This document shows positions 17,601 to 38,228 of a stretch of 64,000 bases of DNA, piece after piece. Below the pieces are notes generated by a model that saw only the letters and a program-made list of their open reading frames with translations, did no database searches and was not told the DNA's origin. The translations under genes were made by a program, and so were the position numbers. Every line of letters starts with the position of its first letter. Within the stretch, counting starts at the first letter, position 1. The DNA is from a plasmid, in NCBI RefSeq assembly GCF_056746865.1, contig NZ_JBWKMP010000003.1; one strand, given 5' to 3'.

Positions 17601-20600
17601 CAGCAAGCTGTCTTTAATGCTGTGGAAATGGGGCGTCTTGACCTGGCGTCTGGTAAACACCGTGATGCGCAGAAGAAGAACAAGATTAAGGATCAGGCCG
17701 CGAATACCGGTACAACGAAGAAGCAGAATATCCCGTACTTTGAGGATATGAACTTCGATAGCGTGATAGCCGACGAGGGGCATAACTACCGCAACTCCTT
17801 TAATGCCGGGCGTGAAGCGGGACAACTGGCATATTTGCCTAACCCGGCAGTATCCAAGATGGCCCGCGACATGGCTGTAAAAGCTGCGTACATGATGAAA
17901 CGCAACAACGGGCGTGGTGTAGTCATGCTGACGGCAACACCGCTGGTGAACAGTCCGATTGATGCCTTCAACATGCTGTCTACTGTCATTCCGCAGGAAG
18001 AGTGGATGCGCATGGGCATCATTACGCCTGATGATTTCGTTCGTGTGTTTGGTAAAACAGCCACAGTTCAGGTCCAGAAAATTTCCGGGGAAGTGGAAGA
18101 GAAGCAGGGGCTGGTTGGCTTCCAGAACCTTGATGGCCTGCGTGGTATTTTCCATCGCTGGACTACTCTGAAGACTGCTGCGGACGTCGGGGCGACGGTT
18201 AAAATCCCTGATATTGTCGAGAATACCTTGCAGATCCCGATGACAGGGGAGCAGGAGGCTGCTTATGAAGAGCTTCGTAAGCGTGCACAGGAGTTAAGTA
18301 GTAAAGATGCGCTGACGGTTGATGAAAACGGGCATATCACAAACGAAAAACCGGATGATTTCATCTTCTCCATCATCCGCGACATGGATAAGGTTGCTAT
18401 AGATCCGGATCTGTATGCCAGTGCGATTACATTCCAGTTCCCCGTTGAGCTTGCAGACAAGGTAAAAGCTATTGCTGATGCCCTGCCAAAAGTAGCTGGC
18501 GGTAAAGTGGCAGATGATGCAGACGAGGCCGAAGAAGACGGCGCTGGTGGGCTGGTTAGTACGCGCACCAGTAAGGTAGTGAAGACCACCTTTAGTGAAC
18601 ATCCGGCGCATGTTGAAATACGTGCCAGCATTGAACTGGAAGCTGAAATACTGAAGGCCATTGCTGCCGCCGGGATTGATATGCAGCAGGTATCACACCC
18701 AATCCCGCCGAAGTATGCCGCGCTGATCGAAAACCTTCGTGAAGGTCTGAAGAACGGTAAACAAATTGTCTTCATTGATGAAAAAGCCCAGCACCAGAAG
18801 CTGCGCCGTATTATCGCCAGTGCACTGCAAATGCCGGAGCAGGAGATAGGCATTATCAATGCGACGACCGTTAGCCAGGCTGGCGGCATCAAGCTGAAGA
18901 AGGTGAATAAGCCGACTGAACCTACTCCGAATAAAAACGGTGAATACAAAGAAGGGGCATGGGAAACCTACTACAGCAAACTTGCCCAATATGAGGATTA
19001 TCTCTCAGCTAAAAATGATGCTGGCCTTGAGGGTATGGAAGGCATTGCCGCCGACTATAACGAAGGGCGCACGCGCATAATTATCTGTAACAAGAAGGCT
19101 GAAGTAGGTATTAACCTGCATATCGGGACAACCGATATCCACCACCTGACACTACCCTGGACACCAGCCAGTATCGACCAACGAAATGGGCGCGGTGCGC
19201 GCGTAGGTTCACCGCAAGAGAAGGTCAATGTTCACTACTATTGTGGCAAAGGCACATTCGACGACTTCCGTCTGGATACGCTGAAACGTAAGAAAGACTG
19301 GATCAAGATGGTAATGACCTCCGACATGTCAGAGATCGCCAATGGTGATGCGGATGATGCTGATGAACGCGCCATTATGCTGGCGGCAAACCCGGAAGAA
19401 CGCCGCGCAATCATGGCTCGCCAGGCGCAAGAGCGTGAAGAACGTCTGAAACTGAAAGCACAGCGCGAGGCCAACAATGCTCTCGATATCTACCTGAAAG
19501 CGGCAAACGCCGCTGGAAAAGATATCGGCATGATGGAGACAGAACTGAAAAGCGCGATGGAACAGATAGAGTATTACCAGCGAAATCTTGACGACCTGAT
19601 AAAAGCGGGTACGAACAGGAATGGGCAAAAATTCGCGCTTGAGCAGTTGAGTAGCTACAGAAAACGTGCGCGGGTGCTGCGGTTTGCGATCACCAGGGCA
19701 AAAGACGCGGATACCATAATGAAACGCTCTCGTGGTGATGTGGAGCGCGCTATTAAGTCTGGTGTGCTGGATATCAGTATCGATGTTATTCAGAACCCAC
19801 AGGAATATATGCGCACTGACAAGAATATCCTGTTGCATAAAGGTAGTTATTACCGTGCAGTCATTGATGATCGCGAAACAACAGCGATTGTCCGGGTGGA
19901 AAAAATTGACGGTGAAAAAGCACAATACCTCTGCCGTATCGCCTGGCTGGATAGAGCAAGTCGTTACGCTCGATCACCGGGGTCAATCGTTACATTGCCG
20001 TTTGACTCTGTGATTGAAGCGGTAACTTTTGAAGAGGGGGTAGCTGAATCGCGCGCAACGGCTGCGCGTGGTGTTCAGTGCCACCAGCTATCAACAATAC
20101 TTACTCGCGATCAGTTCTATGATGCTATTCGCAATGGGGTAATGAATGTTATTGCTGGTAAACCTGGTAATGCATGGGGCGGTGGGTCAGCTATTAAATA
20201 CTGGGCATATCGCACAGATGATGGTCAGATCGCGCTGTCATCGGCCTATGATGGCGTGATAGGCCAAAAAATCGGGCGAGCATCGGATATAGCACCTGAA
20301 CGATGGATATATCCAGATGGCAACGATGAGGCGCTGAAGCGTGAAGTGGCAAAAATACAAGCCAGTGATAACCCGCTGAATATCGTGGACGGCGAGGGAT
20401 TCCTCCAGGCATTGTATGGGTATGATTACATCCAGGGAATGCAGGCATGGGGCGCACAGGCAACGATGGATGATGTTGTCCAGGAGTTCGAAAACTGGAT
20501 GGCTGGGCGTGGTCTGTCAGGTCGTTCGCTTAATAAAGTCACTTCTGAAGATATTCTTAGCTTGTTCCGCAAACCGTCCGGAGAAGGTCTGGAATCATTC

Positions 20601-21485
20601 TGGAGGACCGTGCTGGCATACCGTTTATTCAAGGGCAGAATGAAAGCCTTTAGCAATATCGATGATATTGAACGGATGTTTAATCAGGTCAAGATCGCCA
20701 AAATTAAGACGAAGATCGAAAAAACACGTTCTGCGCTGGTGGCCTGGCGCGATGCATTGTTTGAGCAATATAAATCACTCAGTGATGCAGATGGATGGGC
20801 GGCATTGGAACAGTTGGCGAATAATGGGGTAGATGGAGCGAAACTCGCCATAGTCCAGGCTGATAACCCCCTGGAATCACCGGCAGCACAGTGGATTAAG
20901 GTGGGGGCTGTCATCAATGCATTTGATGAAAAACACATTAGTAAGGACGATTTTGCTGATGCTGTTTCTGTTAATCGCCTGGTAGAAATGGCTACCCGCC
21001 GCGCCCGTGAGTTGAAAGACGGTGACTATGTGAATGAGTTGCCGGATGCGCTCAAATCAGCAACGTGGCAAGACTATGTATCGCTGAAAAACGGCGGGGC
21101 CACCGAATCAGAGATCGCGGAAAGGCTTGAACAGGCTGAAAGCAAAAGAGAAGAGCAGGCGGCAGTGGCTGAAGCAAGAGCTGATGAAGCGGCGAATGAT
21201 GACTATATCATTGTGGTTAATGATAAGCCGATTCGCGCTAAGGCGCGTGTTCGCGGGCGCTGGTGGAGTGTCAGCGAGGACGTCGGTGCGGTTTATCTCA
21301 TTGCCGACCAACCTGGTTCCTCGACAATACGGAACGCCAAAGACGCGATTAAGAAGATTGGCGGGCGTTTCTGGAATTTTGAAGCAAACCCGGTTGCTGA
21401 TGTGAACTTTGACCGTCCTGCATGGATGGTATCTACGCGTTACTCGTTAGATGAACTGCGTAAAATAATCGCCGATGCGGCCTAA
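14634..21485 (+). CDS. darB: DarB-like antirestriction protein: N6-adenine methyltransferase fused to a DExH helicase
   Basis: 2283 aa (P1 DarB is about 2255 aa). MTase motifs VLEPSAGTGIF and GNVPFG. Helicase motifs GFGTGLGKTT, DEGHNYRN and QRNGRGARVG. The start may be the TTG at 14649 (SD GAGGGGG). Confidence 0.9.
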   Translation: MRGLPLDKIIDSISQATSIGALIEIVSRLHKPRAVVTFGVKKVDGVSIQKTRRTANNAAVDLLNSLPPGFDGAKLTDEQRQILAGYTGEGGLTDGEGSQYEYYTPQFMAEGIWDLFGDYGIDSGHVLEPSAGTGIFQETKRQGMIMTSAELSPISGRINQLLHPEDDVNIGAFEALAAKDAMYDHAVGNVPFGEGRSGVAGLDPAYANEKNVGNYFVLRTIDKVKPGGLIVLVVPNGMTDGTKYKKLRDKVSRKAEFLGAHRMPSGTFSESGTDTVVDVWVLRKHPETFLEMIPDTDDATLKSANVLWDTFLKGKWFTTEGKRFVYGDMERTSFRNTLVVKKDGRVSNESMKTALSRRFESRINWDLLGVTTQAWQGAKVGDKRLVGGIWHEFDGLKWVKDTTTKSSALDVSRYGVSTFGDLQIAFQSTNGILALSWDQISAIASDYPSVVSDEVAAMIRFAGKQREKDRERVMRGALIGQLINKALDLRNLGVNVDDKLADASRLAAAEVAKYGPPHAIKLNGLAEAGAKNWMTFTGNVKQDGSTSDLLAGRLDVTDGAAGIDFTRPEQVIAHLFSDVALNPITLGDFREAFAGELPEDDDAALEYLAKFDDIAIDGYGCLLPMDRATSGDIVTKTALLVGWRDASTGEQKANFERQLAKIEEKRIFTPLNKVTVNLNARWLDRRLIKEFLAEQGYDEFKYTEPDLKVVDGILVSPDDYEGKDGVFTGYQLRTVNGKNGNEFKKANNKDGFLNQLENYLNGVKPRGQNANEYLDKIAQLEVSFNDWLRTHPQADQIARDYNDAFNGFIPFTHSNAPLGLEGISGKRIPLTYQNEEVRRLSEDGRGIMGFGTGLGKTTTALALEAYNFETGRTKRTCIVVPKAVYQNWYHEAQSFYSADAFANMMFIGLDEVRDDSGNILTAPVLDENGEPRLDSNGQPLTRNVVKESASAVIVQRMNMIPSSNWRTVIMTKEQFASIPLREKTIEENSQQAVFNAVEMGRLDLASGKHRDAQKKNKIKDQAANTGTTKKQNIPYFEDMNFDSVIADEGHNYRNSFNAGREAGQLAYLPNPAVSKMARDMAVKAAYMMKRNNGRGVVMLTATPLVNSPIDAFNMLSTVIPQEEWMRMGIITPDDFVRVFGKTATVQVQKISGEVEEKQGLVGFQNLDGLRGIFHRWTTLKTAADVGATVKIPDIVENTLQIPMTGEQEAAYEELRKRAQELSSKDALTVDENGHITNEKPDDFIFSIIRDMDKVAIDPDLYASAITFQFPVELADKVKAIADALPKVAGGKVADDADEAEEDGAGGLVSTRTSKVVKTTFSEHPAHVEIRASIELEAEILKAIAAAGIDMQQVSHPIPPKYAALIENLREGLKNGKQIVFIDEKAQHQKLRRIIASALQMPEQEIGIINATTVSQAGGIKLKKVNKPTEPTPNKNGEYKEGAWETYYSKLAQYEDYLSAKNDAGLEGMEGIAADYNEGRTRIIICNKKAEVGINLHIGTTDIHHLTLPWTPASIDQRNGRGARVGSPQEKVNVHYYCGKGTFDDFRLDTLKRKKDWIKMVMTSDMSEIANGDADDADERAIMLAANPEERRAIMARQAQEREERLKLKAQREANNALDIYLKAANAAGKDIGMMETELKSAMEQIEYYQRNLDDLIKAGTNRNGQKFALEQLSSYRKRARVLRFAITRAKDADTIMKRSRGDVERAIKSGVLDISIDVIQNPQEYMRTDKNILLHKGSYYRAVIDDRETTAIVRVEKIDGEKAQYLCRIAWLDRASRYARSPGSIVTLPFDSVIEAVTFEEGVAESRATAARGVQCHQLSTILTRDQFYDAIRNGVMNVIAGKPGNAWGGGSAIKYWAYRTDDGQIALSSAYDGVIGQKIGRASDIAPERWIYPDGNDEALKREVAKIQASDNPLNIVDGEGFLQALYGYDYIQGMQAWGAQATMDDVVQEFENWMAGRGLSGRSLNKVTSEDILSLFRKPSGEGLESFWRTVLAYRLFKGRMKAFSNIDDIERMFNQVKIAKIKTKIEKTRSALVAWRDALFEQYKSLSDADGWAALEQLANNGVDGAKLAIVQADNPLESPAAQWIKVGAVINAFDEKHISKDDFADAVSVNRLVEMATRRARELKDGDYVNELPDALKSATWQDYVSLKNGGATESEIAERLEQAESKREEQAAVAEARADEAANDDYIIVVNDKPIRAKARVRGRWWSVSEDVGAVYLIADQPGSSTIRNAKDAIKKIGGRFWNFEANPVADVNFDRPAWMVSTRYSLDELRKIIADAA

Positions 21486-27424: not shown

Positions 27425-28000
27425 ATGTTAACGGCGAACGATAACGCGTATTTAGAAGATGATCTCGTTTTGAGTGACTTTATAGGGCGACGAGAATGCT
27501 GGACGCAAAAGCGCGAGGAGCTTTATGCAGCGTTAGTTCGTAAAGGCGTCAACATCGAAACCGCACAGAACGGTGATATGACAGTGGTAAGTGTTGGACT
27601 GCACGGCGTAAGTGTGTCAGCAATCAATCATGAGCCGTACATTGCGTTATCCGAGTCGATGGTAAGGTTAGTTAAGTTCCTGAAGTACACAGAAGCGAAT
27701 AACGTGCTCATCGCCAAAAAGAACATCCCGTTCTCATCGGCCTTTTACTGGATGATGAAGGGGCTTGATGCCCGGCGAACATCATGGCCTAAAGGGAGCT
27801 ATATATCGATGCTCCGTGGCAGTGTTGGTAGCAAAGAAAAGCTCGTCGAATTCCTGCCGGAAGAGGCATTCGATATTGTTGAAGGTTGTGATGTGATGGT
27901 TATGCCTCGCCTGGTAATGATGAATGGGGATTTACAGGCGCAGACAGACTGGTTTGCAACTGGAGTTGATATTATCGCTACTGACTGGGAGGTTTTTTGA
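27425..28000 (+). CDS. Hypothetical protein with C-terminal DUF2829 (Tad2-like) domain
   Basis: 191 aa with SD AAGGAG. C-terminus ..FYWMMKGLDARRTSWPKGSYI....IIATDWEVF. Confidence 0.7.
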   Translation: MLTANDNAYLEDDLVLSDFIGRRECWTQKREELYAALVRKGVNIETAQNGDMTVVSVGLHGVSVSAINHEPYIALSESMVRLVKFLKYTEANNVLIAKKNIPFSSAFYWMMKGLDARRTSWPKGSYISMLRGSVGSKEKLVEFLPEEAFDIVEGCDVMVMPRLVMMNGDLQAQTDWFATGVDIIATDWEVF

Positions 28001-28487: not shown

Positions 28488-28880
28488 ATGGAGCAAATCA
28501 GTAGCGCCGAAATAGCGGATATCATGATCAGGGCTAACTGCTATCTGACGGTCACCGAAATCACCAGCCGTGCAAAAGCACAATATCCTCACCTTCATGT
28601 GTCGCGCGTAAACGTAAATAACATCATACGTTTTTTTGTTCGTTCCAGTCGTGCCATTTGCGAAATAGACGACCGCGTATACCCCCGGAAATATTGGTTA
28701 CATGGCCTGAATGGATACCAGTTCAAGGTGCGCGGGCGCACTCCTGAATTCGGTCGGCTGTTGGTGAAAAACACCAACCGAAAGATAGAAGCTCAATTAC
28801 GAAAGGAGCAGCGTCAGTTGGTGGCGATGACTAACCAGCTATGGAACGCCGCTGTGAAAAAACGTGAGGCTTCCCTATGA
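28488..28880 (+). CDS. Candidate late promoter activator (Lpa position)
   Basis: 130 aa, directly upstream of pacA and behind an operator pair, as P1 lpa (gene 10). Assigned by synteny only. Confidence 0.4.
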   Translation: MEQISSAEIADIMIRANCYLTVTEITSRAKAQYPHLHVSRVNVNNIIRFFVRSSRAICEIDDRVYPRKYWLHGLNGYQFKVRGRTPEFGRLLVKNTNRKIEAQLRKEQRQLVAMTNQLWNAAVKKREASL

Positions 28881-30241
28881 CGTTAATTAACTGGGAAGCG
28901 CATCGAGCTAAGTTCCTGGAGTTAAGAGAAGAAACCGGGATCACCATAAAAGAATATTGCGAGCAGCATGACCTCAGCTTTAACACCGCCAGAAAGCATC
29001 TCAATATGAAAAAAAATGAGGTTAAGGCGAAAGCTAAGGCTACCGGGAAAAGTACAAAACAGCGCGCAAAAAGCAGCGCCACCGGCTCAAAAAAAGAGCA
29101 AAAAAAGGCTAATAAAAGCACAGAATTTACAAAAACTGACAAATCGTTGGCTGGTGGACGGTTCCGCGCCATGCCGCAAAAACAAAATGCGGATCACAAA
29201 GAAAAGCCAAGTAATAACAACAAGATACACAAGGATGTGAAGGGATCATTTTGTGATGAAATGGGAGAAATGATCCCTAAAAGCAGCGATAAAGCCCAAC
29301 GAAACAAGGGATCATTGCAAATGATCCCTGATTCATCAGCTCAAAGCACCACTTTGCCTGCCACCAACGTCGCCCGTGAGATGATGAAGAACGGCGCGAC
29401 TGAACATTTACGACTTGCGATACAGATGGCGCAGGAACGAGCAATTCAGTATCAGGCTATCGTTGACCAGGAAGCGGAGCGACTACAGGAAGAGATTGAC
29501 GCCCTCGGTGATACACAGCCAGAGGGGATGCACCCAGGGCAGCGTCTTCTCGGACTGATCAGCGATGCGGCCTACTACATGAATGACTTTATCACCAGGC
29601 TGGCAGCCATCTATCAGAACGAGCAGAAGCTACGCCAGGGGGATGAAAAACTTGCGCAGGGCGCGCGTCAGCAGGCATTCAGGGAGGCTGAGGCCAGAGA
29701 AAAACTGGCGATTGCCCGCCTACAAGCCGAGCAGCGTGGCAAGGAGATTGAGTATCGCATTGGCGCTGACGCACGCGCCGCCAGGGTTATCGCCGCCGCT
29801 ATACGTATGCGTGAGCGCGAGGAGCTGGATGATATAGGTGTTGCTGAATATATCGAGCGGCAGGGCGTCAGTGTCCCGGCTATCCTGGCGGCACGAGCGG
29901 CAAAAGCGATCTCACTTCTGGAGCCTCCGGTTTCTGACGTTAACGATGTTGATGATGAGCAACTGGATAAAGAGGCGAAGCAGTTTGCCGAGCAACAAGC
30001 TGGACTCCCACAATGGCTTGCACAACGCCGGGCTGAAGTAGCGAAAATCGTTGATAGGCTTGGGATGGGGGATTACGACCGGAACGGAGAACGTAAAGCC
30101 GGTGAATTTGAGGCCAATGATGAAGACCTGAATATAGACCCTTCCGCGACGGCTGATATCTACGGTGATTATGACGCGGGGGATACCGGTTTTGATGCTG
30201 TAGATGACGAGATTGCGATAGACCAGCCGGAGGATGACTAA
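28877..30241 (+). CDS. pacA: Terminase small subunit PacA
   Basis: 454 aa. N-terminal HTH (ITIKEYCEQHDLSFNTARKHL), acidic tail, contains the GATC-hexamer cluster, TAATG overlap with pacB. Confidence 0.75.
   Translation: MTLINWEAHRAKFLELREETGITIKEYCEQHDLSFNTARKHLNMKKNEVKAKAKATGKSTKQRAKSSATGSKKEQKKANKSTEFTKTDKSLAGGRFRAMPQKQNADHKEKPSNNNKIHKDVKGSFCDEMGEMIPKSSDKAQRNKGSLQMIPDSSAQSTTLPATNVAREMMKNGATEHLRLAIQMAQERAIQYQAIVDQEAERLQEEIDALGDTQPEGMHPGQRLLGLISDAAYYMNDFITRLAAIYQNEQKLRQGDEKLAQGARQQAFREAEAREKLAIARLQAEQRGKEIEYRIGADARAARVIAAAIRMREREELDDIGVAEYIERQGVSVPAILAARAAKAISLLEPPVSDVNDVDDEQLDKEAKQFAEQQAGLPQWLAQRRAEVAKIVDRLGMGDYDRNGERKAGEFEANDEDLNIDPSATADIYGDYDAGDTGFDAVDDEIAIDQPEDD
29191..29327. other. Candidate pac cleavage/recognition region: five GGATCA/TGATCC hexamers
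   Basis: Hexamers at 29191, 29243, 29271, 29309 and 29322, four of them as two inverted pairs. The P1 pac site inside pacA is built of TGATC(A/G) Dam-site hexamers. Confidence 0.5.
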
Positions 30242-31749
30242 TGGCTGGTGGTCGTAAGATTAAGTGCGTCACCAGTGATCCACGTTGGCGCGATATGGTT
30301 ATCAGGTATCGATACAACTTTACCCAGGCGGTTGTCGATATTTTTGGGATGTTCCCCTCCCACCAGCAGCAGCAGATCATTCAGTCAGTGCAGGAGACGG
30401 GGAGCAGGACGACCGTTACGTCCGGACACGGAACGGGTAAGTCGTCCCTTACCGCGATGTTGCTACTAATTTTTATGATCCTGTTCCCCGACGCCCGCGT
30501 CATTATTGTTGCGAACAAAATAGGCCAGGTAAAAACAGGCGTATTCAAATACGTGAAACAGTTTTGGGCGAATGCTGTTAAGCGCCACGGCTGGTTACAG
30601 ACCTATTTTGTCCTGTCTGACACCATGTTTTATGAGCGTTCCCGTAAAGGGATATGGGAAGTGCTCTGTAAAGGTTATCGACTCGGTAACGAAGAGGCAC
30701 TGGCGGGGGAGCACGCGGAGCATTTACTGCTAATCCTTGATGAAGCATCGGGCATATCCGATAAGGCGATTAACGTCATGACGGGGGCGTTAACGCAGAA
30801 AGATAACCGTATGCTCATGCTTTCCCAGCCTACGCGTCCAAGCGGTTACTTTTATGAATCTCACCATTCAAGGGCAAAGGCAGAAGGCAATCCGGAAGGT
30901 GTCTGGACGGCAATAGTCCTTAACTCTGAAGAATCACCATTCGTTGAACCGAGCTTTATTCGTGAGAAATTGCTGGAGTACGGCGGCAGGGATTCGCTGG
31001 AGTACATGGTTAAGGTGCTGGGCCAGTTCCCGCGTGCAATTAACGGGTATTTGCTTGGTCGTGATGAGTGCGACCGCGCCGCACGGCGTAAAGTGTTGCT
31101 GGAGAAAGATTGGGGCTGGGTAGCGACCGCTGACGTCGGTAATGGTCGCGATAAATCGGTGCTCAATATATGCAAAGTATCCGGTTATCGTGAGAAACGA
31201 CGCGTTGTGAACTTTAAGATACTGGAGATGCCAGGCACTATGGACCCGTTGGCTTTTGCCGACTTTATCTATAACGAATGCACTCCTGATAAATACCCGA
31301 ACATCACCATTGCTGTGGATGCTGATGGCTTTGGTTCAGATACGTGTGCGCAGCTTGTCCGCCGTGGTGCTAATCCCGTTCGCATCCGTTGGGGTAAGCC
31401 TATGTTTGCGCTAAGAGACAGAGAACGCTTTGTCAATCAGCGTGCTTACGCCAATATTATGGCAGGGGATGCCATTAAATCCGGGCGTATGCGTATCGAT
31501 AGTGACCCCAAAACCGCAGATCAGGCATCAAAAATCCCGTATATGCTTAACGAAGAAGGGAAGGTAGCGATGATGCGCAAGGAGCACATGCGGCAGAAGT
31601 TAAACATCAAGTCACCGGACAGATGGGATACCTACTGCTTCACTATGCTGGTGGATTACGTGCCTGCTAATGAAGACATTGGCGCAGAACTCGCAACATT
31701 CCGCGATCAGGTGTTGGCAGAAGTGGATATTCCTGATATTGACATTTAA
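30241..31749 (+). CDS. pacB: Terminase large subunit PacB
   Basis: 502 aa. Walker A SGHGTGKSS and Walker B LLLILDEASG. Follows pacA. Confidence 0.85.
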   Translation: MAGGRKIKCVTSDPRWRDMVIRYRYNFTQAVVDIFGMFPSHQQQQIIQSVQETGSRTTVTSGHGTGKSSLTAMLLLIFMILFPDARVIIVANKIGQVKTGVFKYVKQFWANAVKRHGWLQTYFVLSDTMFYERSRKGIWEVLCKGYRLGNEEALAGEHAEHLLLILDEASGISDKAINVMTGALTQKDNRMLMLSQPTRPSGYFYESHHSRAKAEGNPEGVWTAIVLNSEESPFVEPSFIREKLLEYGGRDSLEYMVKVLGQFPRAINGYLLGRDECDRAARRKVLLEKDWGWVATADVGNGRDKSVLNICKVSGYREKRRVVNFKILEMPGTMDPLAFADFIYNECTPDKYPNITIAVDADGFGSDTCAQLVRRGANPVRIRWGKPMFALRDRERFVNQRAYANIMAGDAIKSGRMRIDSDPKTADQASKIPYMLNEEGKVAMMRKEHMRQKLNIKSPDRWDTYCFTMLVDYVPANEDIGAELATFRDQVLAEVDIPDIDI

Positions 31750-31786: not shown

Positions 31787-32824
31787 TTACCAGAGTTTTG
31801 CCGCGTACATCGTTTGTGTGAATGTGTACCCATAGCGTTCTTCAACGCTTTTACCGTATTTTTTCCTGGCTTCAGTAAGGCGGATGCCTGTCAGGTCATC
31901 GCCGGAGGCAATCATAACTTCCAGTAGTTCCAGGTCCATTTTATCCAGCCTTGCCATTGCATCTTTAGCCTCTTGAATTTTCCGGCTAACGATCTGGTGT
32001 ATGGCTGGATCGGCTTCGGCCAGCATTTTATCTGATTTGTTTTTTAAACTCTGATTGCGGATATCAATGTTTCTCAGGATATATGACTTCACGACGTAGC
32101 TTGGCTGCTGCTTTTCCAGATCACGAACCCGATAAAGGTCAAATTCGCCGAGAAGTCCGCACGGAAGCGGTTTAATGCCAGTGTAAATGGTAAGGGTGCG
32201 GCGCTCACCAACGTTGTTAACAACGGGAATCTCTGTGTTTGCTTTTTTTGCAAAGATCAGCGCACCGTGCGTACCCACTCTGAAGCGTGAAAGTCCATTG
32301 TTGCCCTCAATATTGGTGGTAATCACCACATCGGTATAACCTTCTTTTCTTGCGCGGTATACCTCGCCCTCACGTTCAGCGGCGAAGAATCTGCGTTCTT
32401 CTTCAAGCGCACCGACAACCTGTGAAAATATCCTGTTTTTCATGCTTTTCTTTATAGTTTTATCGTATTTTTTCAGCAGGTCTTCGCGCGTAAATGTTCT
32501 CGTTGTGGTTGCGCTTTGCATAACGATGTGCGTACTCTGATTAGTATCCTCAACAATGAATGGGATCGGTAAATAAACCGACTCAACAATGTTTGAGGCT
32601 TTGTCATCATCCTTGCGACACAGATCAACAAAGGCTTTCCATTCGGCTATGCATTTTTCAGCTTCTTCTAATACAGCCGGATCATGTGTTAATGCAACAT
32701 GGCGAAATTCCTCGCCAACATAACTGGTATCATGGAAAACAGAGTTTGCGACCACCAGCTCTTTCCACCTTTCAGCGGTTTGCAGGAACCGTTTGTACTC
32801 ATTCTCGATCGACTTCTTACTCAT
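31787..32824 (-). CDS. Candidate primary immunity repressor (c1 position)
   Basis: ATG at 32824 (SD AGGA) gives 345 aa. It lies between pacB and the rox/dre locus, exactly where P1 c1 lies, with operator half-sites in its upstream region. I saw no sequence similarity to P1 C1. Confidence 0.4.
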   Translation of the reverse strand: MSKKSIENEYKRFLQTAERWKELVVANSVFHDTSYVGEEFRHVALTHDPAVLEEAEKCIAEWKAFVDLCRKDDDKASNIVESVYLPIPFIVEDTNQSTHIVMQSATTTRTFTREDLLKKYDKTIKKSMKNRIFSQVVGALEEERRFFAAEREGEVYRARKEGYTDVVITTNIEGNNGLSRFRVGTHGALIFAKKANTEIPVVNNVGERRTLTIYTGIKPLPCGLLGEFDLYRVRDLEKQQPSYVVKSYILRNIDIRNQSLKNKSDKMLAEADPAIHQIVSRKIQEAKDAMARLDKMDLELLEVMIASGDDLTGIRLTEARKKYGKSVEERYGYTFTQTMYAAKLW

Positions 32825-32838
32825 TATTCCTACTCGAT

Positions 32839-32852
32839 TTAGTTTTCTAACA
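32839..32852 (-). promoter_or_regulatory. Operator half-site TTAGTTTTCTAACA
   Basis: Lies 15 nt upstream of the c1-candidate start (autoregulation, as with P1 Op99). Confidence 0.55.
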
Positions 32853-32926
32853 TAAAAGTCCTGTGACAAATTTATGCTGAATAACAAGGTGAGTAAAGGA
32901 TAAAACCGCTTTTTTTTGATTGTTCC

Positions 32927-32940: not shown

Positions 32941-33020
32941 ACCAGGAGCGGCTACCGCATGGCTGACGGATTTGCGAAGTGATCTGGTCGGTGTTTTTTT
33001 GGGAAAAAAGTTCCGATTTC

Positions 33021-33052
33021 TAACTTTAAATAATTGGCATTATTTAAAGTTA
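33021..33052. other. rox: rox-type recombination site (14-bp inverted repeats, 4-bp spacer)
   Basis: TAACTTTAAATAAT-TGGC-ATTATTTAAAGTTA is a perfect 14-bp inverted repeat. It equals the reverse complement of the D6 rox site as I remember it. It lies 150 bp upstream of the recombinase gene. Confidence 0.85.
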
Positions 33053-33204
33053 GGCTATAATCTCCAGTAAACAGGCAGTATTGACAAGGATGAAAAATCA
33101 TGCCTCGAATCAAAGGCTTGAATTTTGAAAATTAACTTATAACTACCCTGTCAGTTTTCTATTTTTCACGTAGCGTTATCTGTATATAGAGGTTTAATAG
33201 TTTC

Positions 33205-34233
33205 ATGGGTGAACTAGTTATCTCCGGCGGTTCTGGTGGTTTTCTGCGCGATATTGGCACCGAATACCAGGAAGCTGCAAAAAACTTTATGCAGTTCATG
33301 AACGACCAGGGAGCTTATGCTCCAAATACGCTTCGAGATCTCCGTCTGGTGTTTCATTCCTGGGCGCGGTGGTGTAATTCGCGCCAGCGCCCCTGGTTCC
33401 CGATTACGCCGGAAATGGCCCGCGAGTATCTTCTCCAGTTGCATGAGGCCGATCTGGCCTCGACCACCATTGATAAGCACTATGCCATGCTTAACATGCT
33501 GCTTTCGCAATGTGGCCTCCCGCCGCTGTCGGACGATAAAAGTGTGTCTCTGGCCATGCGGCGCATCCGGCGCGAAGCGGCAACGGAAAAAGGCGAGCGA
33601 ACAGGCCAGGCTATACCGTTGCGGTGGGATGATCTGAAATTGCTCGACGTGTTGCTGTCCCGTTCCGAGCGGCTGGTGGACCTGCGCAATCGGGCGTTTC
33701 TCTTCGTGGCATACAATACCCTGATGCGTATGTCAGAAATCTCGCGCATCCGCGTCGGAGATCTGGACCAAACAGGTGACACTGTAACGCTGCATATTTC
33801 ACACACGAAGACCATCACGACCGCCGCCGGACTTGATAAGGTGCTTTCTCGTTACACTACCGCCGTACTGAACGACTGGCTGGAGGTGTCCGGACTTCGA
33901 GAACATCCGGACGCGGTGCTATTCCCGCCAATACACCGCAGTAATAAGGCCAGAATCACGACAACGCCCCTTACTGCACCTGCAATGGAGAAAATATTCA
34001 GCGATGCCTGGGGGTTGCTGAACAAACGAGATGCCACGCCGAACAAAGGAAGATACCGGACGTGGACAGGCCATAGTGCGCGTGTTGGTGCGGCAATTGA
34101 TATGGCTGAGAAACAGGTGTCAATGGTCGAGATCATGCAGGAAGGTACATGGAAAAAGCCCGAAACACTTATGCGATATTTGCGCCGTAGCGGGGCATCC
34201 GTTGGTGCAAATAGTCGCCTGATGGACTCATAA
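33205..34233 (+). CDS. dre: Dre-type (Cre-like) tyrosine site-specific recombinase
   Basis: 342 aa, collinear with P1 Cre (..HSWARWC..WFP.., ..AYNTLMRMSEISRIRV.., ..WTGHSARVGAA.DMA..). Near-identical to my recollection of D6 Dre. Confidence 0.92.
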   Translation: MGELVISGGSGGFLRDIGTEYQEAAKNFMQFMNDQGAYAPNTLRDLRLVFHSWARWCNSRQRPWFPITPEMAREYLLQLHEADLASTTIDKHYAMLNMLLSQCGLPPLSDDKSVSLAMRRIRREAATEKGERTGQAIPLRWDDLKLLDVLLSRSERLVDLRNRAFLFVAYNTLMRMSEISRIRVGDLDQTGDTVTLHISHTKTITTAAGLDKVLSRYTTAVLNDWLEVSGLREHPDAVLFPPIHRSNKARITTTPLTAPAMEKIFSDAWGLLNKRDATPNKGRYRTWTGHSARVGAAIDMAEKQVSMVEIMQEGTWKKPETLMRYLRRSGASVGANSRLMDS

Positions 34234-34248: not shown

Positions 34249-34305
34249 ACCTTTTTAGACAGTGCATTTTAATGTAAAGTACCCTCGCCTATTGCGGAGG
34301 GTACT

Positions 34306-34650: not shown

Positions 34651-35135
34651 AAACTTACTACCCATCCCTGAACTGTTATCCAACCACTAATCCTGAGCTG
34701 TCAGGGAAACTTCTGTCCCTCCTGGCTGATAGTCCTGATGAATGGCATAAGCCTGGTGATATCAACACACAGTTCCCTGAGTACGGGTGTATCCGCACCC
34801 GAAATGAGCTGAAGAACCTCATTGCTCACGGTTTTGTCCGTCACCGTAGCGGGAAAGGCTATCAGTTGGCTATCCCACAAGGAGAGGCAAGAGAACTCTT
34901 TGGCTATCGAGAAAGCCAGACGCAAGCGCGGGTGATCGCAGAAATTATCCGTAATGGCAGCGTCTATGCCCGCAAATTCTGGCTGTCTGGCGGTGGTGAT
35001 GCATCACAGTTCTTGCGTGCTGTGCGATCGCTGGAGGAACAAGGTGTTATCGAGAATACCTGCGTCTCCGTTCCGACCGCTCCGCATATCAAACGCCGGA
35101 TTTATACATTTACCCGGAGAGCTAAAAAGCAATGA
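34647..35135 (+). CDS. Hypothetical protein, possible winged-helix
   Basis: 162 aa with an ATGA overlap. Segment ..LKNLIAHGFVRHRSGKGYQLA.. looks wHTH-like. Confidence 0.65.
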   Translation: MKTYYPSLNCYPTTNPELSGKLLSLLADSPDEWHKPGDINTQFPEYGCIRTRNELKNLIAHGFVRHRSGKGYQLAIPQGEARELFGYRESQTQARVIAEIIRNGSVYARKFWLSGGGDASQFLRAVRSLEEQGVIENTCVSVPTAPHIKRRIYTFTRRAKKQ

Positions 35136-35626
35136 TTAACGTGAAAGTGAAACGCCTTCATCCGGCGGCAAAACTCCCCGTTTACGCCACCGCCGGATCG
35201 GCGGCGATGGATTTTGTTGCTGTTGAAATAACGCCGGGTATCGATAGCAACGGCGCTATTTCCTCAAGCTGGTGGGTGCATACCGGCCTCGCTATGGCGA
35301 TCCCTCCTGGCTGGTGTCTGAAACTTTATCCTCGTTCCGGATTGGGCTGCAAAAAGCATACGCGCCTGGCTAACTGCGTAGGAATTATCGACTCCGATTA
35401 TCGCGGTGAAATCAAAGCAAAACTGATTACAGATCCCGGTGGTGAAGGCGTTTGCCTCAAGCCAGGAATGGCGGTCATGCAAGGCATTTTTGAGCGTGTT
35501 GAACCGGTATCGCTGGTAGAAGTTGATGAACTCGATGAAACAGAGCGAGGTGCTGGTGGCTTTGGTAGCACATCGGAAGACCGCATTGAAATCAAGCGTA
35601 CACCGCTTCAGTACGCAAAGTTTTAA
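35132..35626 (+). CDS. dut: dUTP diphosphatase
   Basis: dUTPase motifs AGSAAMD, RSGLG, IIDSDYRGEI and ERGAGGFGST. Confidence 0.9.
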   Translation: MINVKVKRLHPAAKLPVYATAGSAAMDFVAVEITPGIDSNGAISSSWWVHTGLAMAIPPGWCLKLYPRSGLGCKKHTRLANCVGIIDSDYRGEIKAKLITDPGGEGVCLKPGMAVMQGIFERVEPVSLVEVDELDETERGAGGFGSTSEDRIEIKRTPLQYAKF

Positions 35627-35640
35627 GTAGAGGAAAGGCT

Positions 35641-36291
35641 ATGAATAACATGCCAACGAAAGAGCTTTTTAAGTTCCTTCCCAAATACAAAGCTCACAAA
35701 AACGTTAGTGCATCGAAAATTAAAAATGTTGTTATTTTCGGAGTAACTGATGCCCCACTTTGGGGCTGCATCGAACTCGTTGAACCAAAAGGGGCAACAG
35801 TTTGTGTTGACGCAATGTTTTTACAAAAACACCGACCAAAAACTGGCGGGTATCTGATCGTTTATGAAAACGGTTATCTGTTCTATGCCCCGGAGAAACC
35901 ATTTGAGGAATGCTATGGCCTGGTTAACGACGCCTCCAAAAATGGAACCACGGTCATCATTACGGATGACAACGGCGTGATGATTAATCTTACTGGGAGC
36001 GTAACTATTTCTGCTGGTGGCATCACCACCCAGCAAGAAGAAATCGACCTTGAAGCAGCCGACTTCTCTGATGCGCTAATGTGGTTGAAGGAAGGCAAGA
36101 AAGTTGCCCGACGCGAGTGGAAAGGCGAAAAGCAATTCTGCTGGTTAGTTCTCGCTGGAAGCGTCAATTTACACGGCATTCACGTTCCTTATGGTGACCA
36201 TTTTGTATTGAAAGATGCACAAAATATGGACAGCGTTTGGTTGCCGTCTGTGGATGATTTACTGGCCTGTGACTGGTTTGTTGTGGAGTGA
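35641..36291 (+). CDS. Protein with C-terminal DUF2829 (Tad2-like) domain
   Basis: 216 aa. The C-terminus FSDALMWLKEGKKVARREWKG..VWLPSVDDLLACDWFVVE is the clearest DUF2829 pattern in the window. Confidence 0.75.
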   Translation: MNNMPTKELFKFLPKYKAHKNVSASKIKNVVIFGVTDAPLWGCIELVEPKGATVCVDAMFLQKHRPKTGGYLIVYENGYLFYAPEKPFEECYGLVNDASKNGTTVIITDDNGVMINLTGSVTISAGGITTQQEEIDLEAADFSDALMWLKEGKKVARREWKGEKQFCWLVLAGSVNLHGIHVPYGDHFVLKDAQNMDSVWLPSVDDLLACDWFVVE

Positions 36292-36297
36292 TTTAAC

Positions 36298-37104
36298 GTG
36301 GAAAATACCAAGAACATTCAATATCGCTTGCGTAACGGCCTGCTGGTGGATGTAAACGATGATATGTCCCTGCCCTTTGCCACCATTGAGCGAACCATCC
36401 TTACATACCTGGGCTTAGACGAAGAGTTAGATAGTGAGAATGGCATTGCTATCTGGCGTGACGGAAAAACGGGAGTCAGACGTTTTATTACGGCAAGAGG
36501 CATTCAGTGCACACAGGAAGAATTGTTTGAACTGGCGCAGTCTTATGGATGCATCGCGTTAGATCCCCTGTATGACCCAGCCATAGCACAACAACTCATT
36601 CGAGAGCTGTCGCTTTCGGTCACGCCAATAATCTTCCGCCAGGGAACCTTAACCGGCACATGGCGTGTAGAACGCATCTCTAAATATCAGCCATATAATA
36701 TCCATTTGAACGGCACTATTACTGGTGTGGATCAACCAGTAGCAGGTGAAAACAAAGACCTGGAACTTGCAGTAATGATGGCAGCTTGTCGCGTGCTTGG
36801 CCTGGGCAAGCAGATGTTTATCCATTTCCCAAACGGCGCGGAAGGCGAAGTAGAGCTGATTTCCTGCGACTTTTCCTTAACCTGGATGCTTGATGAATTC
36901 CTGGACAAAACAGTATTCCGTGCTGAAGAACTGGATATGTATGTCACCTCAAGTATTCCTAATGACGTGAAAGTTGAGGCCATCGCTACAGCCAGGGCGA
37001 AATGCCGTGCGGCGATTGCAGAACAGGCCAAAGAAGAACAGTCCGATGAAGTCGCGGCAGATGTGGAGGCAGAGGTAGCGGAGGATGCTGATGCTGACGC
37101 CTAA
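36298..37104 (+). CDS. Hypothetical protein with acidic C-terminal tail
   Basis: GTG start, 268 aa. Tail EEQSDEVAADVEAEVAEDADADA. Overlaps the terminase-like paralogue in the way pacA overlaps pacB. Confidence 0.65.
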   Translation: MENTKNIQYRLRNGLLVDVNDDMSLPFATIERTILTYLGLDEELDSENGIAIWRDGKTGVRRFITARGIQCTQEELFELAQSYGCIALDPLYDPAIAQQLIRELSLSVTPIIFRQGTLTGTWRVERISKYQPYNIHLNGTITGVDQPVAGENKDLELAVMMAACRVLGLGKQMFIHFPNGAEGEVELISCDFSLTWMLDEFLDKTVFRAEELDMYVTSSIPNDVKVEAIATARAKCRAAIAEQAKEEQSDEVAADVEAEVAEDADADA

Positions 37105-38191
37105 AAACATCACCGAATTACCAGAGTGGAGAGAGCTGGTAAGCAAATATAGCCATGACTGGGCATTAGCAGCAGAAGAGTTGATGGGTGTTAAGTTAAC
37201 CCACCAGCAAAAGCTAATTGTTGAGGCGATTCAACAAAAAGGTTCAGCAGTCAGCGTCACCACTCCTGAAGGGATAGGCCAAAAGACGGTTATCGCTATA
37301 ATTAGTATTCTTTATACAATCCTGATGCCTGAGTCTAAAACGGTTATTGTTTCCCCAAAGTTCTATAATTGTCGCAGGCAAGTTATCCAATACATAAGTA
37401 CGTATTGGGATAGAGTCAGTAACAGAATCCCATTGCTGGGAGAATATTTTAAAGTCGACGGAAACGGCATCAATCATCGTTACCGGGAATATTGGGGCTG
37501 CGAAATTAAGCCATATCACCGAAATTATGAGGAAGGTTTCGGTGGATATTATGCTGAACATCTTTTAATCATTGTTACGGAGGCGGCTCTTGCTGGCGAT
37601 CGGCTATTCAGCATGTTAAGAGCATCGTTAGTAAGTGACGATTCACGTATACTTTTAATGTCCGCTCCTTCAGAGGAGGAGCATGGACACTTTTACGATT
37701 CCCATCATGGTCGTGCAAAATCAGAAGAAAATCCATGTGGTATTTATACAGCCATCAAGCTGAACGCAGAAGATACCCCCATTATTTCACAAGGTTATCT
37801 TGATAACATTGCAGAAATATATGGTGGTAAAAACAGCGATTACTACCGTCGCATGATTCTTGGTGAGTTTCCAGGTATTAGGGAGGCTGTTCTTGAATCA
37901 GATATGCCGAAAACAATGCGCTTTTCGATGCCTGATGGTAGTGAATGGATAATGCCATTACGAGTGATAGCCCGGCATCATGCACAGCACCACGCCAAAA
38001 AACATGGCGTTACAACATTGGAGTGGTTGAAATCGCACACCATTCCACTCTTCACTGCAGATCACAATGCTATCGTTGAGTGGGCAAAAACAATTCCGTG
38101 GGAGAATGTCGCTGAATACGCCCACATGCTAAAACCGCCGAAAGACAGGCAAGAAATTAGCTGGCTGACAGCAGAAAAAATCATTGAGTGA
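37091..38191 (+). CDS. Terminase-large-subunit ATPase-domain paralogue with degenerate Walker motifs
   Basis: Collinear with the PacB N-terminal half (HQQKLI, AEHLLII, RILLMSAP, GHFYDSHHGRAKSEENP, YTAIKLNAEDTP, YGGKNS, GEFPG). Walker A is PEGIGQKT and Walker B is IIVTEAAL, and the C-terminus is unrelated. Confidence 0.75.
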   Translation: MLTPKNITELPEWRELVSKYSHDWALAAEELMGVKLTHQQKLIVEAIQQKGSAVSVTTPEGIGQKTVIAIISILYTILMPESKTVIVSPKFYNCRRQVIQYISTYWDRVSNRIPLLGEYFKVDGNGINHRYREYWGCEIKPYHRNYEEGFGGYYAEHLLIIVTEAALAGDRLFSMLRASLVSDDSRILLMSAPSEEEHGHFYDSHHGRAKSEENPCGIYTAIKLNAEDTPIISQGYLDNIAEIYGGKNSDYYRRMILGEFPGIREAVLESDMPKTMRFSMPDGSEWIMPLRVIARHHAQHHAKKHGVTTLEWLKSHTIPLFTADHNAIVEWAKTIPWENVAEYAHMLKPPKDRQEISWLTAEKIIE

Positions 38192-38197
38192 TAGTAG

Positions 38198-38228
38198 GAA
38201 GCCCGCCTGGTTGAGCGGGCTTCTTTTC
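38198..38228. terminator. Bidirectional terminator between convergent operons
   Basis: GAAGCCCGC..GCGGGCTTC with T-runs on both sides. Confidence 0.7.

What the first reader, a model, noticed from the sequence alone, without database searches (positions are those of the whole stretch)
36298..38191. Second, catalytically degenerate terminase-like gene pair
The 37091-38191 protein is collinear with the ATPase half of PacB over about 250 aa. Shared blocks are HQQ-I, AEHLL-I, R-L-MS-P, G-FY-SHH-RAK-E-NP, TAI-LN-E-P, YGG--S and -FP. Its Walker A (PEGIGQKT versus GHGTGKSS) and Walker B/catalytic Glu (IIVTEAAL versus LILDEASG) are eroded. The nuclease half is replaced by an unrelated ~110-aa C-terminus. 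It is preceded by a gene with an acidic tail that overlaps it, as pacA overlaps pacB. A non-catalytic terminase paralogue could regulate or compete with packaging, recognise pac or portal, or have been recruited to another function.
Basis: seen in the sequence. Interest (0 to 1): 0.5.

Follow-up and report, generated by a model that had tools for sequence, protein, structure and literature searches.

The report
Dead terminase-ATPase copy in phage-plasmid
A D6/P1-type phage-plasmid carries, besides its real DNA-packaging enzyme, an accessory gene made of an enzymatically dead copy of that enzyme's motor domain fused to a small, widespread phage domain. It is not a second packaging enzyme, and its role is unknown.

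Summary

Its Walker A lysine and Walker B aspartate are replaced in all seven family clusters examined. The nuclease half is absent. In its place is a ~95-aa domain that is mostly stand-alone in other phages (190 clusters).

The "gene pair" reading is only partly right. Gene 1 (36298-37104) is the P1 IsaA homologue and shows no similarity to PacA. IsaA occurs without gene 2 (P1, D6, SJ46), and gene 2 occurs without IsaA.

The locus is the known hypervariable isaA region, not pdcA/pdcB. Gene 2 is full-length in 163 of 790 PacB-bearing PLSDB plasmid records.

It evolves under relaxed purifying selection (dN/dS about 0.5, against 0.06 for the PacB ATPase domain). It is also mosaic: its core differs between plasmids whose PacB proteins are identical.

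My best inference is a non-catalytic PacB mimic that acts by competitive binding, probably on an external target. I could not test this mechanism. I found no paper describing the family.

The parts
37091..38191 (+). Gene 2: 366-aa two-domain accessory protein (phrog_5902), made of a dead PacB-type ATPase domain plus a small C-terminal domain
   Evidence: ORF. Start at 37091 with GGAGG at 37080-37084. phrog_5902 E 1.7e-133. Model pLDDT 92.1. Intact homologues at 37-100% identity.
37091..37876 (+). N-domain (aa 1-262): terminase large-subunit ATPase fold, paralogous to PacB residues 8-264
37262..37288 (+). Remnant of Walker A (aa 58-66, TPEGIGQKT). The position of the PacB GK(S) lysine is Q here and Q/H/R/R/T/E in the other family clusters
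   Evidence: Alignments. In the model it lies between strand 53-57 and helix 64-78, the canonical P-loop position.
37562..37591 (+). Remnant of Walker B (aa 158-167, LLIIVTEAAL). The PacB Asp is T here and A/M/V/L/I in relatives. The catalytic Glu is kept here but is D or N in relatives
   Evidence: Alignments.
37892..38188 (+). C-domain (aa ~268-366): a ~95-aa phage domain with predicted beta-hairpin, three helices and two short terminal strands. It is unrelated to the PacB nuclease
   Evidence: hhalign stops at residue 267. An exhaustive search with this domain finds 190 clusters at E<=1e-3, mostly ~100-aa stand-alone proteins. phrog_17928 E 3.8e-14. Secondary structure.
36298..37104 (+). 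Gene 1: IsaA homologue (268 aa) with an acidic C-terminal tail. Its stop codon lies 14 nt inside gene 2
   Evidence: 73% aa identity to D6 orf113 ('similar to P1 isaA') and 46% to P1 IsaA. phrog_2326 E 1.9e-125. dN/dS about 0.1. No similarity to PacA.
37080..37084 (+). Shine-Dalgarno sequence GGAGG for gene 2, inside the 3' end of gene 1. This arrangement could allow translational coupling
   Evidence: Sequence. Overlapping stop/start is also seen in homologous loci L010 (11 nt) and L002 (8 nt).
38200..38228 (.). G+C-rich hairpin followed by a T-run, between gene 2 and the convergent doc gene. It probably ends the cre-to-gene-2 string of co-oriented genes
   Evidence: Sequence. Terminator-like hit.
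30241..31749 (+). The bona fide pacB (502 aa, intact GHGTGKS and LDEASG motifs, nuclease half), the reference paralogue. pacA lies at 28877-30241
   Evidence: The nearest relatives are annotated as terminase or pacase.
35641..36291 (+). Context: Tad2-like/DUF2829 gene immediately upstream, in the same tightly packed co-oriented gene string (cre 33205-34233, two small ORFs, dut 35132-35626)
   Evidence: PF11195 E 2.8e-18. Gene spacing. The same order occurs in D6 and in related plasmids.

Best explanation
**Shown.** Gene 2 is not a second terminase. It is a terminase-derived pseudoenzyme. An ancestral PacB-family gene was duplicated within the P1/D6-type phage lineage. The copy lost its nuclease half and its ATPase motifs (Walker A Lys, the 'AN.I.QV' block, Walker B Asp, and in part the catalytic Glu and the SQPT motif). 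It became fused to a ~95-aa domain that otherwise exists as a stand-alone product of phage early or accessory gene clusters.

It is a dispensable accessory gene in the hypervariable isaA locus. It is transcribed in the same direction as cre/dut/Tad2-like/isaA (or ssb/isaA in P1-type genomes), not with the pacA-pacB genes.

**Inferred.** The protein keeps the PacB-specific N-terminal helices, the Q-motif region and the strongly conserved post-C-motif block (G.FYDSHH..A...NP.G..AI.L..E..P). It cannot hydrolyse ATP or cut DNA. So it most likely works by binding, as a mimic or competitor of the PacB ATPase domain for a PacB partner such as PacA, the portal or a PacB ring. That would modulate or poison pac-type packaging.

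Its core differs strongly between plasmids whose own PacA and PacB are (near-)identical, and most relatives package without it. The target is therefore more likely external (a co-resident or superinfecting P1/D6-type element, or a host factor) than the element's own packaging machine. The small C-domain and the N-terminal 57 residues are the parts under tightest constraint.
For: - **Homology and fold:**
- **Motif loss in every family cluster:**
- **No nuclease; separate C-domain family:**
- **Origin within the PacB radiation:** NJ tree.
- **Functional gene, not a wreck:** intact ORFs from 37% to 100% identity; dN/dS 0.2-0.5, below 1; confident fold.
- **The two modules are functionally linked:** P0075 carries them in reversed order, with 55% and 39% identity to P0007.
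- **Dispensable:** full-length in 163 of 790 PacB-bearing PLSDB plasmid records and 3 phage records; absent from P1 and D6.
- **Uncoupled from its own terminase:** between the window and plasmid CP056699, PacB dN = 0 and PacA dN = 0.004, yet gene 2 codons 58-125 have dN 0.37 and codons 1-57 and 263-366 are almost identical.
- **Relaxed constraint:** dN/dS 0.45-0.52 for the N-domain against 0.06 for the PacB ATPase domain.
- **Gene order and terminator:**
- **Established knowledge (from memory, not tested here):** large terminases work as portal-bound rings in which inactive subunits are said to interfere with the motor, and in lambda the N-terminus of gpA binds the small subunit.
Against: - No interaction was tested, so the binding partner is unknown.
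- The conserved blocks shared with PacB may only be fold-stabilising core.
- A competitor of PacB would risk poisoning the element's own packaging.
- Stand-alone C-domain genes lie near replication or recombination genes (ban, recE, DUF1351, DUF2303) rather than packaging genes. This suggests the active part may have nothing to do with packaging.
- The timing of expression was not established. P1-type C1 operator and late-promoter patterns gave no hits in this window.
Confidence: 0.4

Rival explanations
1. Counter-defence protein aimed at terminase-sensing immunity (Avs1-3, Upx). The dead ATPase domain would act as a decoy or blocker for sensors of the terminase ATPase domain. Alternatively, its active-site residues were erased so that an early-expressed terminase-like protein does not trigger such sensors.
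For: - The terminase ATPase domain alone is what EcAvs2 and Upx recognise. EcAvs2 contacts the terminase-bound ATP. [quoted passage not shown]
- Gene 2 sits directly after a Tad2-like (Thoeris anti-defence family) gene. In P1-type genomes it lies beside the dar antirestriction genes.
- It is hypervariable and mosaic, as the Tad2-like neighbour is.
- The divergent patch starts at the former P-loop.
- C-domain relatives are fused to Lar (restriction alleviation) and N4 gp49-type domains.
Against: - In the characterised sensors, binding of the target activates the sensor, so a simple decoy should trigger immunity rather than block it.
- If sensors read active-site residues and bound ATP, a protein lacking them may not bind at all.
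- dN/dS is below 1 everywhere, so there is no signature of positive selection.
- No PADLOC hit. The paper on the EVADES anti-defence catalogue, as far as I read it, lists no terminase-like anti-Avs protein.
Confidence: 0.2
2. Replication or recombination accessory. The ~95-aa C-domain is the active module, acting on a DNA-metabolism factor. The dead ATPase domain serves only as a scaffold or DNA/protein-binding adaptor unrelated to packaging.
For: - In P1-type genomes gene 2 follows ssb-isaA.
- In L005 it follows a DnaB-type helicase gene.
- The stand-alone domain lies one gene after the ban-sized gene in phage JK004, and its gene (gp107) lies one gene downstream of RecE in phage PHB04.
- It is fused to DUF1351 coiled-coil proteins and lies near DUF2303 and RecA-dependent-nuclease genes.
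- The C-domain is the most conserved part of the protein among D6-type plasmids.
Against: - Neighbourhood evidence comes from only a handful of loci.
- The N-domain keeps PacB-specific surface blocks and stays under purifying selection. It has also been fused to the small domain in both orders, which argues that it contributes specificity.
Confidence: 0.15
3. Regulator of the element's own packaging, for example by holding PacA inactive until late in infection or preventing accidental pac cleavage in the lysogen.
For: It has the same family-specific N-terminus as PacB. It is co-oriented with cre, a plasmid-maintenance gene.
Against: - It is absent from P1, D6 and about four fifths of related plasmids, which package normally.
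- Its core varies while PacA and PacB are constant.
Confidence: 0.1
4. Decaying duplicate with no function, or the opposite: a working second terminase with an unusual P-loop.
For: The catalytic motifs are eroded and dN/dS is elevated. The window's subclade has a K one position downstream (GQKT) and keeps the Glu.
Against: - Against decay: full-length intact ORFs across deep divergence (dS saturated), dN/dS below 1, a conserved start overlap, and a confident two-domain model.
- Against activity: the K and E are not conserved in the family, there is no nuclease domain, and there is no small-subunit partner.
Confidence: 0.04

Closest known systems
PacB, the large terminase subunit of P1/D6-type phages (here 30241-31749)
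   Same: The N-terminal 260 aa are homologous and collinear (33-40% identity) with the same predicted ATPase fold. The family-specific N-terminal helices and the FYDSHH/NP.G/AI.LN.E.P block are kept.
   Different: There is no Walker A Lys, no Walker B Asp and no nuclease domain. It is not next to pacA. It is dispensable, it evolves about 8 times faster at non-synonymous sites relative to synonymous sites, and it carries an unrelated C-terminal domain.
T4 vs.8, an uncharacterised stand-alone terminase-ATPase-like protein (PMC13601566)
   Same: It is a phage-encoded extra copy of the large-terminase ATPase domain, without a nuclease and outside the packaging genes.
   Different: [quoted passage not shown] Gene 2 has lost both motifs and has an added domain. 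No sequence comparison was made here.
P1 IsaA / the isaA-IS1-isaB variable region (RD-2) of P1-like phage-plasmids
   Same: Gene 1 is an IsaA homologue. In P1-type genomes without IS1, gene 2 sits exactly where P1 has IS1 and isaB. The region is a recognised hypervariable spot (PMC9603915, PMC6906374). A CRISPRi screen scored isaA non-essential (PMC10695390).
   Different: In this D6-type window the locus lies after cre/dut/Tad2-like rather than after ssb. P1 IsaB is unrelated to gene 2.
Satellite-encoded packaging-interference proteins (SaPI Ppi, PICI Rpp). Recalled from memory as a functional analogy only.
   Same: They are non-enzymatic proteins that act by binding a terminase component of another element. 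This is the kind of mechanism proposed here.
   Different: They target or mimic the small subunit, are unrelated in sequence and are encoded by satellites. No interaction has been shown for gene 2.

Membership tests
Large terminase subunit (TerL/PacB) | N-terminal ASCE ATPase domain of the terminase type | tested here: met
Large terminase subunit (TerL/PacB) | Walker A G-x4-GK[ST] with the catalytic lysine | tested here: not met
   The window has GIGQKT. The lysine position is Q/Q/H/R/R/T/E across family clusters, while all 17 PacB sequences keep GHGTGK.
Large terminase subunit (TerL/PacB) | Walker B hhhhD followed by the catalytic E | tested here: not met
   The Asp is replaced by T/A/M/V/L/I. 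The Glu is E, D or N. PacB has an invariant DE.
Large terminase subunit (TerL/PacB) | C-terminal RNase H-like nuclease domain | tested here: not met
   The profile alignment ends at residue 267. The C-terminus belongs to another family. The model shows a small beta-hairpin/three-helix domain.
Large terminase subunit (TerL/PacB) | Encoded next to a small-subunit gene in the packaging gene cluster | tested here: not met
   The upstream gene is IsaA, with no similarity to PacA. The locus is 5 kb from pacAB, beyond c1 and cre.
phrog_5902 (function unknown) | Full-length match to the family profile | tested here: met
   E 1.7e-133, residues 7-367 against profile positions 3-358 of 359. Note that PacB also scores on this profile.
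IsaA family (phrog_2326), gene 1 | Full-length sequence similarity to P1 IsaA | tested here: met
   phrog_2326 E 1.9e-125. tblastn against P1 isaA gives 46.6% identity, E 5e-65. D6 orf113 is annotated 'similar to P1 gene isaA'.
Small terminase subunit (PacA-like), gene 1 | Sequence or fold similarity to a small terminase | tested here: not met
Unnamed ~95-aa phage domain (C-terminal part of phrog_17928) | Motif MPDGS.W.VP..VIA..(R/H)A..(Y/H)A...(Y/H)G......L...T(L/I)PLF......I..WA...M.W..V | tested here: met
   phmmer finds 190 clusters at E<=1e-3. phrog_17928 E 3.8e-14. Alignment.
Known anti-phage defence or anti-defence systems | Match to a curated defence-system protein model | tested here: not met
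   PADLOC gives no hit for gene 1 or gene 2. No anti-defence library was available to search.

The most novel reading that the evidence does not exclude
A phage-plasmid-encoded pseudo-terminase works in a conflict between genetic elements. One version: it is a blocker or stealth decoy for host immune receptors that sense the terminase ATPase domain (Avs1-3, Upx). The other version: it is a dominant-negative subunit that poisons the packaging motor of rival P1/D6-type phages. In either case the fused ~95-aa domain supplies the effector or anchoring function. This would be the first described terminase-derived pseudoenzyme with such a role.
Probability: 0.3. Interest if true: 0.8.

Novelty: new variant of a known kind. 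Interest (0 to 1): 0.5.

Why it matters
Large terminases are the most conserved hallmark proteins of tailed phages and are now known to be sensed by bacterial immune receptors. A widespread, intact, catalytically dead copy of the terminase motor domain shows that this fold has been re-used for a non-enzymatic job. The copy is fused in either order to a small domain that also occurs on its own in other phages.

If the job is competition for packaging partners or interference with terminase sensing, it would be a new type of weapon in phage-phage or phage-host conflict. It would also give a function to one of the classic "unknown" variable loci of P1-type phage-plasmids. Those elements matter as carriers of resistance genes and as transduction tools.

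There is a practical point too. Some records annotate this gene as "terminase large subunit". That label is misleading for genome annotation and for terminase-based phage classification.

Tried and rejected
- **pdcA/pdcB as the P1 counterpart:** rejected. In D6 a pdcA-like gene lies on the other strand next to doc, and the homologous locus is isaA.
- **P1 IsaB as an IS1-truncated remnant of gene 2:** rejected. There is no similarity.
- **PacA-like nature of gene 1:** rejected.
- **Acidic tail of IsaA as a marker of pairing with gene 2:** rejected. The tails are the same in paired and unpaired P1-type IsaA proteins.
- **C-terminus as a degenerate nuclease domain:** rejected by hhalign. The full-length hit of PacB to phrog_5902 is not supported beyond residue ~267.
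- **Library searches with no informative result:** Pfam, NCBIfam, PADLOC and PDB sequence searches for genes 1 and 2.
- **Fold searches of the gene 2 model:** these returned only ATPase-domain matches, so the fold of the C-domain stays unclassified.
- **Expression timing:** the P1 C1-operator consensus and a P1 late-promoter pattern gave no hits anywhere in the window, so timing could not be inferred.
- **Positive selection:** no segment has dN/dS above 1. The variability is better described as relaxed constraint plus allele exchange.
- **Literature searches** (isaA; terminase, decoy and Avs; inactive terminase paralogue; P1-like hotspots): no description of this protein was found.
Full report
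**Setting.** The window is part of a D6/P1-type phage-plasmid.
- pacA (28877-30241) and pacB (30241-31749) are followed by a c1-type repressor gene on the minus strand.
- Next comes a lox-like inverted repeat, then a cre-like recombinase gene (33205-34233).
- After that runs a tightly packed string of + strand genes: two small ORFs, dut (35132-35626), a Tad2-like/DUF2829 gene (35641-36291), gene 1 (36298-37104) and gene 2 (37091-38191).
- The string ends at a hairpin with a T-run, facing the convergent doc/phd and humD genes.
- The nearest public records are E. coli plasmids at 99.5% nucleotide identity. Phage D6 has the same gene order but lacks gene 2.

**Check of the observation.**
- Gene 2 aligns collinearly with the first 264 residues of the window's PacB: 86/258 identical, E 1e-51.
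- A profile-profile comparison of the two families gives probability 100 and E 1.5e-65. It stops at residue 267 of gene 2 and 269 of PacB.
- The real start is the ATG at 37091, because a GGAGG lies 6 nt upstream and the database copies begin there. Gene 2 therefore overlaps the end of gene 1 by 14 nt.
- An AlphaFold2 model built on 40 sequences is confident (pLDDT 92.1).

**Catalytic degeneration holds across the family.** I aligned the window protein with six other 90%-identity clusters and with P1-type homologues, 37-88% identical.

| Feature | PacB (17 sequences) | Gene 2 family |
|---|---|---|
| Walker A lysine | invariant in GHGTGK | Q, Q, H, R, R, T or E |
| Following S/T | conserved S (17/17) then S/D (not conserved) | K, K, K, P, P, T or T |
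| Walker B aspartate | invariant in DE | T, A, M, V, L or I |
| Catalytic glutamate | invariant in DE | E, D or N |
| Block after strand 2 | AN.I.QV | lost |
| C-motif | SQPT | S.P only |

The retained residues are as follows:
- the N-terminal helices (W..L...Y...W.LA..EL);
- the glutamine upstream of the P-loop;
- core aromatic residues;
- the block G.FYDSHH..A...NP.G..AI.L..E..P, together with YGG...Y....G.F.

So the fold is maintained while the enzyme is gone.

**It is a live gene.**
- ORFs are intact across divergence deep enough to saturate dS.
- dN/dS is below 1 in every comparison.
- Constraint is relaxed, though. The N-domain has dN/dS 0.45-0.52 in close pairs. The PacB ATPase domain of the same plasmids has 0.06, IsaA about 0.1 and cre 0.05.

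**The gene is also a mosaic.** I compared the window with the E. marmotae plasmid CP056699.

| Segment | dN | dS |
|---|---|---|
| PacB | 0 (protein identical) | 0.012 |
| PacA | 0.004 | 0.017 |
| Gene 2 codons 1-57 | 0 | 0.028 |
| Gene 2 codons 58-125 | 0.37 | 0.66 |
| Gene 2 codons 126-262 | 0.10-0.14 | 0.27-0.42 |
| Gene 2 codons 263-366 | 0.016 | 0.032 |

 The divergent allele begins at the former P-loop. No segment has dN/dS above 1. The Tad2-like neighbour is similarly variable.

**Origin.** In a neighbour-joining tree of the N-domains the paralogues form one clade. That clade nests inside the PacB radiation, after the most distant PacB relatives split off. This points to a duplication or capture within the P1/D6-type lineage rather than import of an unrelated terminase. 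Long-branch effects are possible.

**The C-terminus is a domain in its own right.**
- An exhaustive phmmer search with residues 264-368 found 190 clusters at E<=1e-3. Most are ~100-aa stand-alone proteins with a shared motif: MPDGS.W.VP..VIA..RA.HYA..YGGD...SL.EDTLPLF..D..EI.DWA.NNMNW.DV.
- Pfam has no model for it. It corresponds to the C-terminal part of phrog_17928.
- It is found fused to DUF1351 coiled-coil proteins, to a Lar-like restriction-alleviation domain and to an N4 gp49/Sf6 gp66 domain.
- Stand-alone copies lie in runs of small co-oriented ORFs. One lies one gene after the ban-sized gene in the P1-like Cronobacter phage JK004. In Bordetella phage PHB04 the carrier gene (gp107) lies one gene downstream of RecE.
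- One protein, P0075, has the small domain first and a dead PacB-type N-domain (GSGTGTTT) second, before a Tn3-family transposase gene cuts the ORF. Its two parts are 55% and 39% identical to those of P0007, the normal-order homologue. Fusion in both orders argues that the two modules work together.
- The fold of the C-domain could not be classified, because whole-model searches are dominated by the ATPase domain.

**Gene 1 is IsaA, not a PacA analogue.**
- It shows no similarity to PacA.
- It is 73% identical to D6 orf113 and 46% to P1 IsaA. It matches phrog_2326 at E 1.9e-125.

**The P1 locus.** P1 has ssb-isaA-IS1-isaB-hxr. P1-type genomes without IS1 (MH422554, MH445380 and many plasmids) have ssb-isaA-gene 2-hxr, with gene 2 at 49% identity over its full length. 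P1 IsaB is unrelated to gene 2.

**The pairing is facultative.**
- IsaA is alone in P1, D6 and SJ46.
- A 38%-identical gene 2 follows a DnaB-type helicase gene with no isaA.
- In PLSDB, 457 plasmid records carry IsaA and 163 carry full-length gene 2, out of 790 with any PacB-family hit.
- Where both genes are present their stop and start overlap by 14, 11 or 8 nt, which could allow translational coupling.
- The long acidic tail is peculiar to the window's subclade and does not track the presence of gene 2.

**What the literature says.** The isaA region is a recognised hypervariable region of P1-like phage-plasmids (PMC9603915, PMC6906374). A CRISPRi screen scored isaA non-essential (PMC10695390). 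I found no description of gene 2.

**Mechanism.** What is shown: a non-catalytic, dispensable, fast-evolving two-domain protein derived from PacB. It is encoded outside the packaging gene cluster, next to a Tad2-like gene.

What I infer: it acts by binding, as a mimic of the PacB ATPase domain. Three points steer the choice among targets.
1. P1, D6 and most relatives package without it. Its core varies while the element's own PacA and PacB stay constant. This argues against a tuned role in its own packaging.
2. It keeps PacB-specific blocks, including the N-terminal helices. In lambda gpA the N-terminus carries small-subunit binding (recalled from memory). So competition for a PacB partner is the simplest biochemical expectation.
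3. [quoted passage not shown] An immune-related role is therefore possible. However, in those systems binding activates the sensor, which makes a plain decoy unattractive. Loss of the active-site residues could instead be a way of not being sensed.

| Reading | Confidence |
|---|---|
| Competitive-binding, packaging-directed | about 0.4 |
| Counter-defence | 0.2 |
| Replication/recombination accessory driven by the C-domain | 0.15 |
| Regulation of own packaging | 0.1 |
| Non-functional or still catalytic | 0.04 |

None of these was tested directly. The decisive experiments and predictions are listed separately.

**Verdict.** The "gene pair" and "pdcA/pdcB" parts are not. The protein fails four of the five defining features of a terminase that I tested, so it should not be annotated as one. 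It is a new variant of a known kind: a terminase-derived pseudoenzyme fused to an uncharacterised phage domain. I rate its interest as moderate.

Noticed in passing
window 35641-36291 and 27425-28000: The window holds two genes with a Tad2-like (Thoeris anti-defence 2, PF11195/DUF2829) domain. The first lies directly upstream of isaA and is hypervariable between otherwise near-identical plasmids (dN 0.25, dS 0.8). A DUF2829 gene also precedes isaA in D6, and the D6 record says SJ46's pre-isaA protein resembles it.
   Followed up: partly
window ~33020-33054: A lox-like inverted repeat (CTAACTTTAAATAAT-TGGC-ATTATTTAAAGTTAG) lies upstream of the cre-like recombinase gene (33205-34233). It corresponds to the 'rox' site annotated in D6. 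A strong sigma-70-like promoter match (11/12) overlaps it.
   Followed up: partly
window 37262-37876 (gene 2 codons 58-262) against L007: There is an allele-exchange mosaic inside gene 2. Both ends are near-identical to the E. marmotae plasmid CP056699, but the ATPase-derived core is a divergent allele. The left breakpoint is at the former P-loop and the right one is at the domain junction.
   Followed up: yes
L006 6001-8384: A reversed-order relative (small domain first, dead PacB-type domain second) is truncated by a Tn3-family transposase gene. It lies near AbiH and RecA-dependent-nuclease genes.
   Followed up: partly
window 3815-5740 and 14634-21485: A DarA homologue (DarA_N/DarA_C domains) and a 2283-aa SNF2/helicase ORF, probably DarB-like, show that the antirestriction genes of the P1 type are present in this element.
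   Followed up: no
window 34277-34302: A perfect 8-bp-stem hairpin (GTACCCTC...GGAGGGTAC) lies in the 73-bp gap between cre and the next ORF. It could be an attenuator or partial terminator that separates cre from the accessory genes.
   Followed up: no
L002 5971-7065 (MH422554) and MH445380: Public phage records annotate the gene 2 homologue as 'terminase large subunit'. This is misleading, because the protein lacks all catalytic motifs and the nuclease domain.
   Followed up: yes
window 31787-32887 (- strand): The c1-type repressor ORF is 366 aa from a TTG start in the mechanical ORF list, whereas related plasmids annotate about 345 aa. No P1-type C1 operator consensus occurs anywhere in the window, so this element's immunity specificity differs from P1.
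   Followed up: partly
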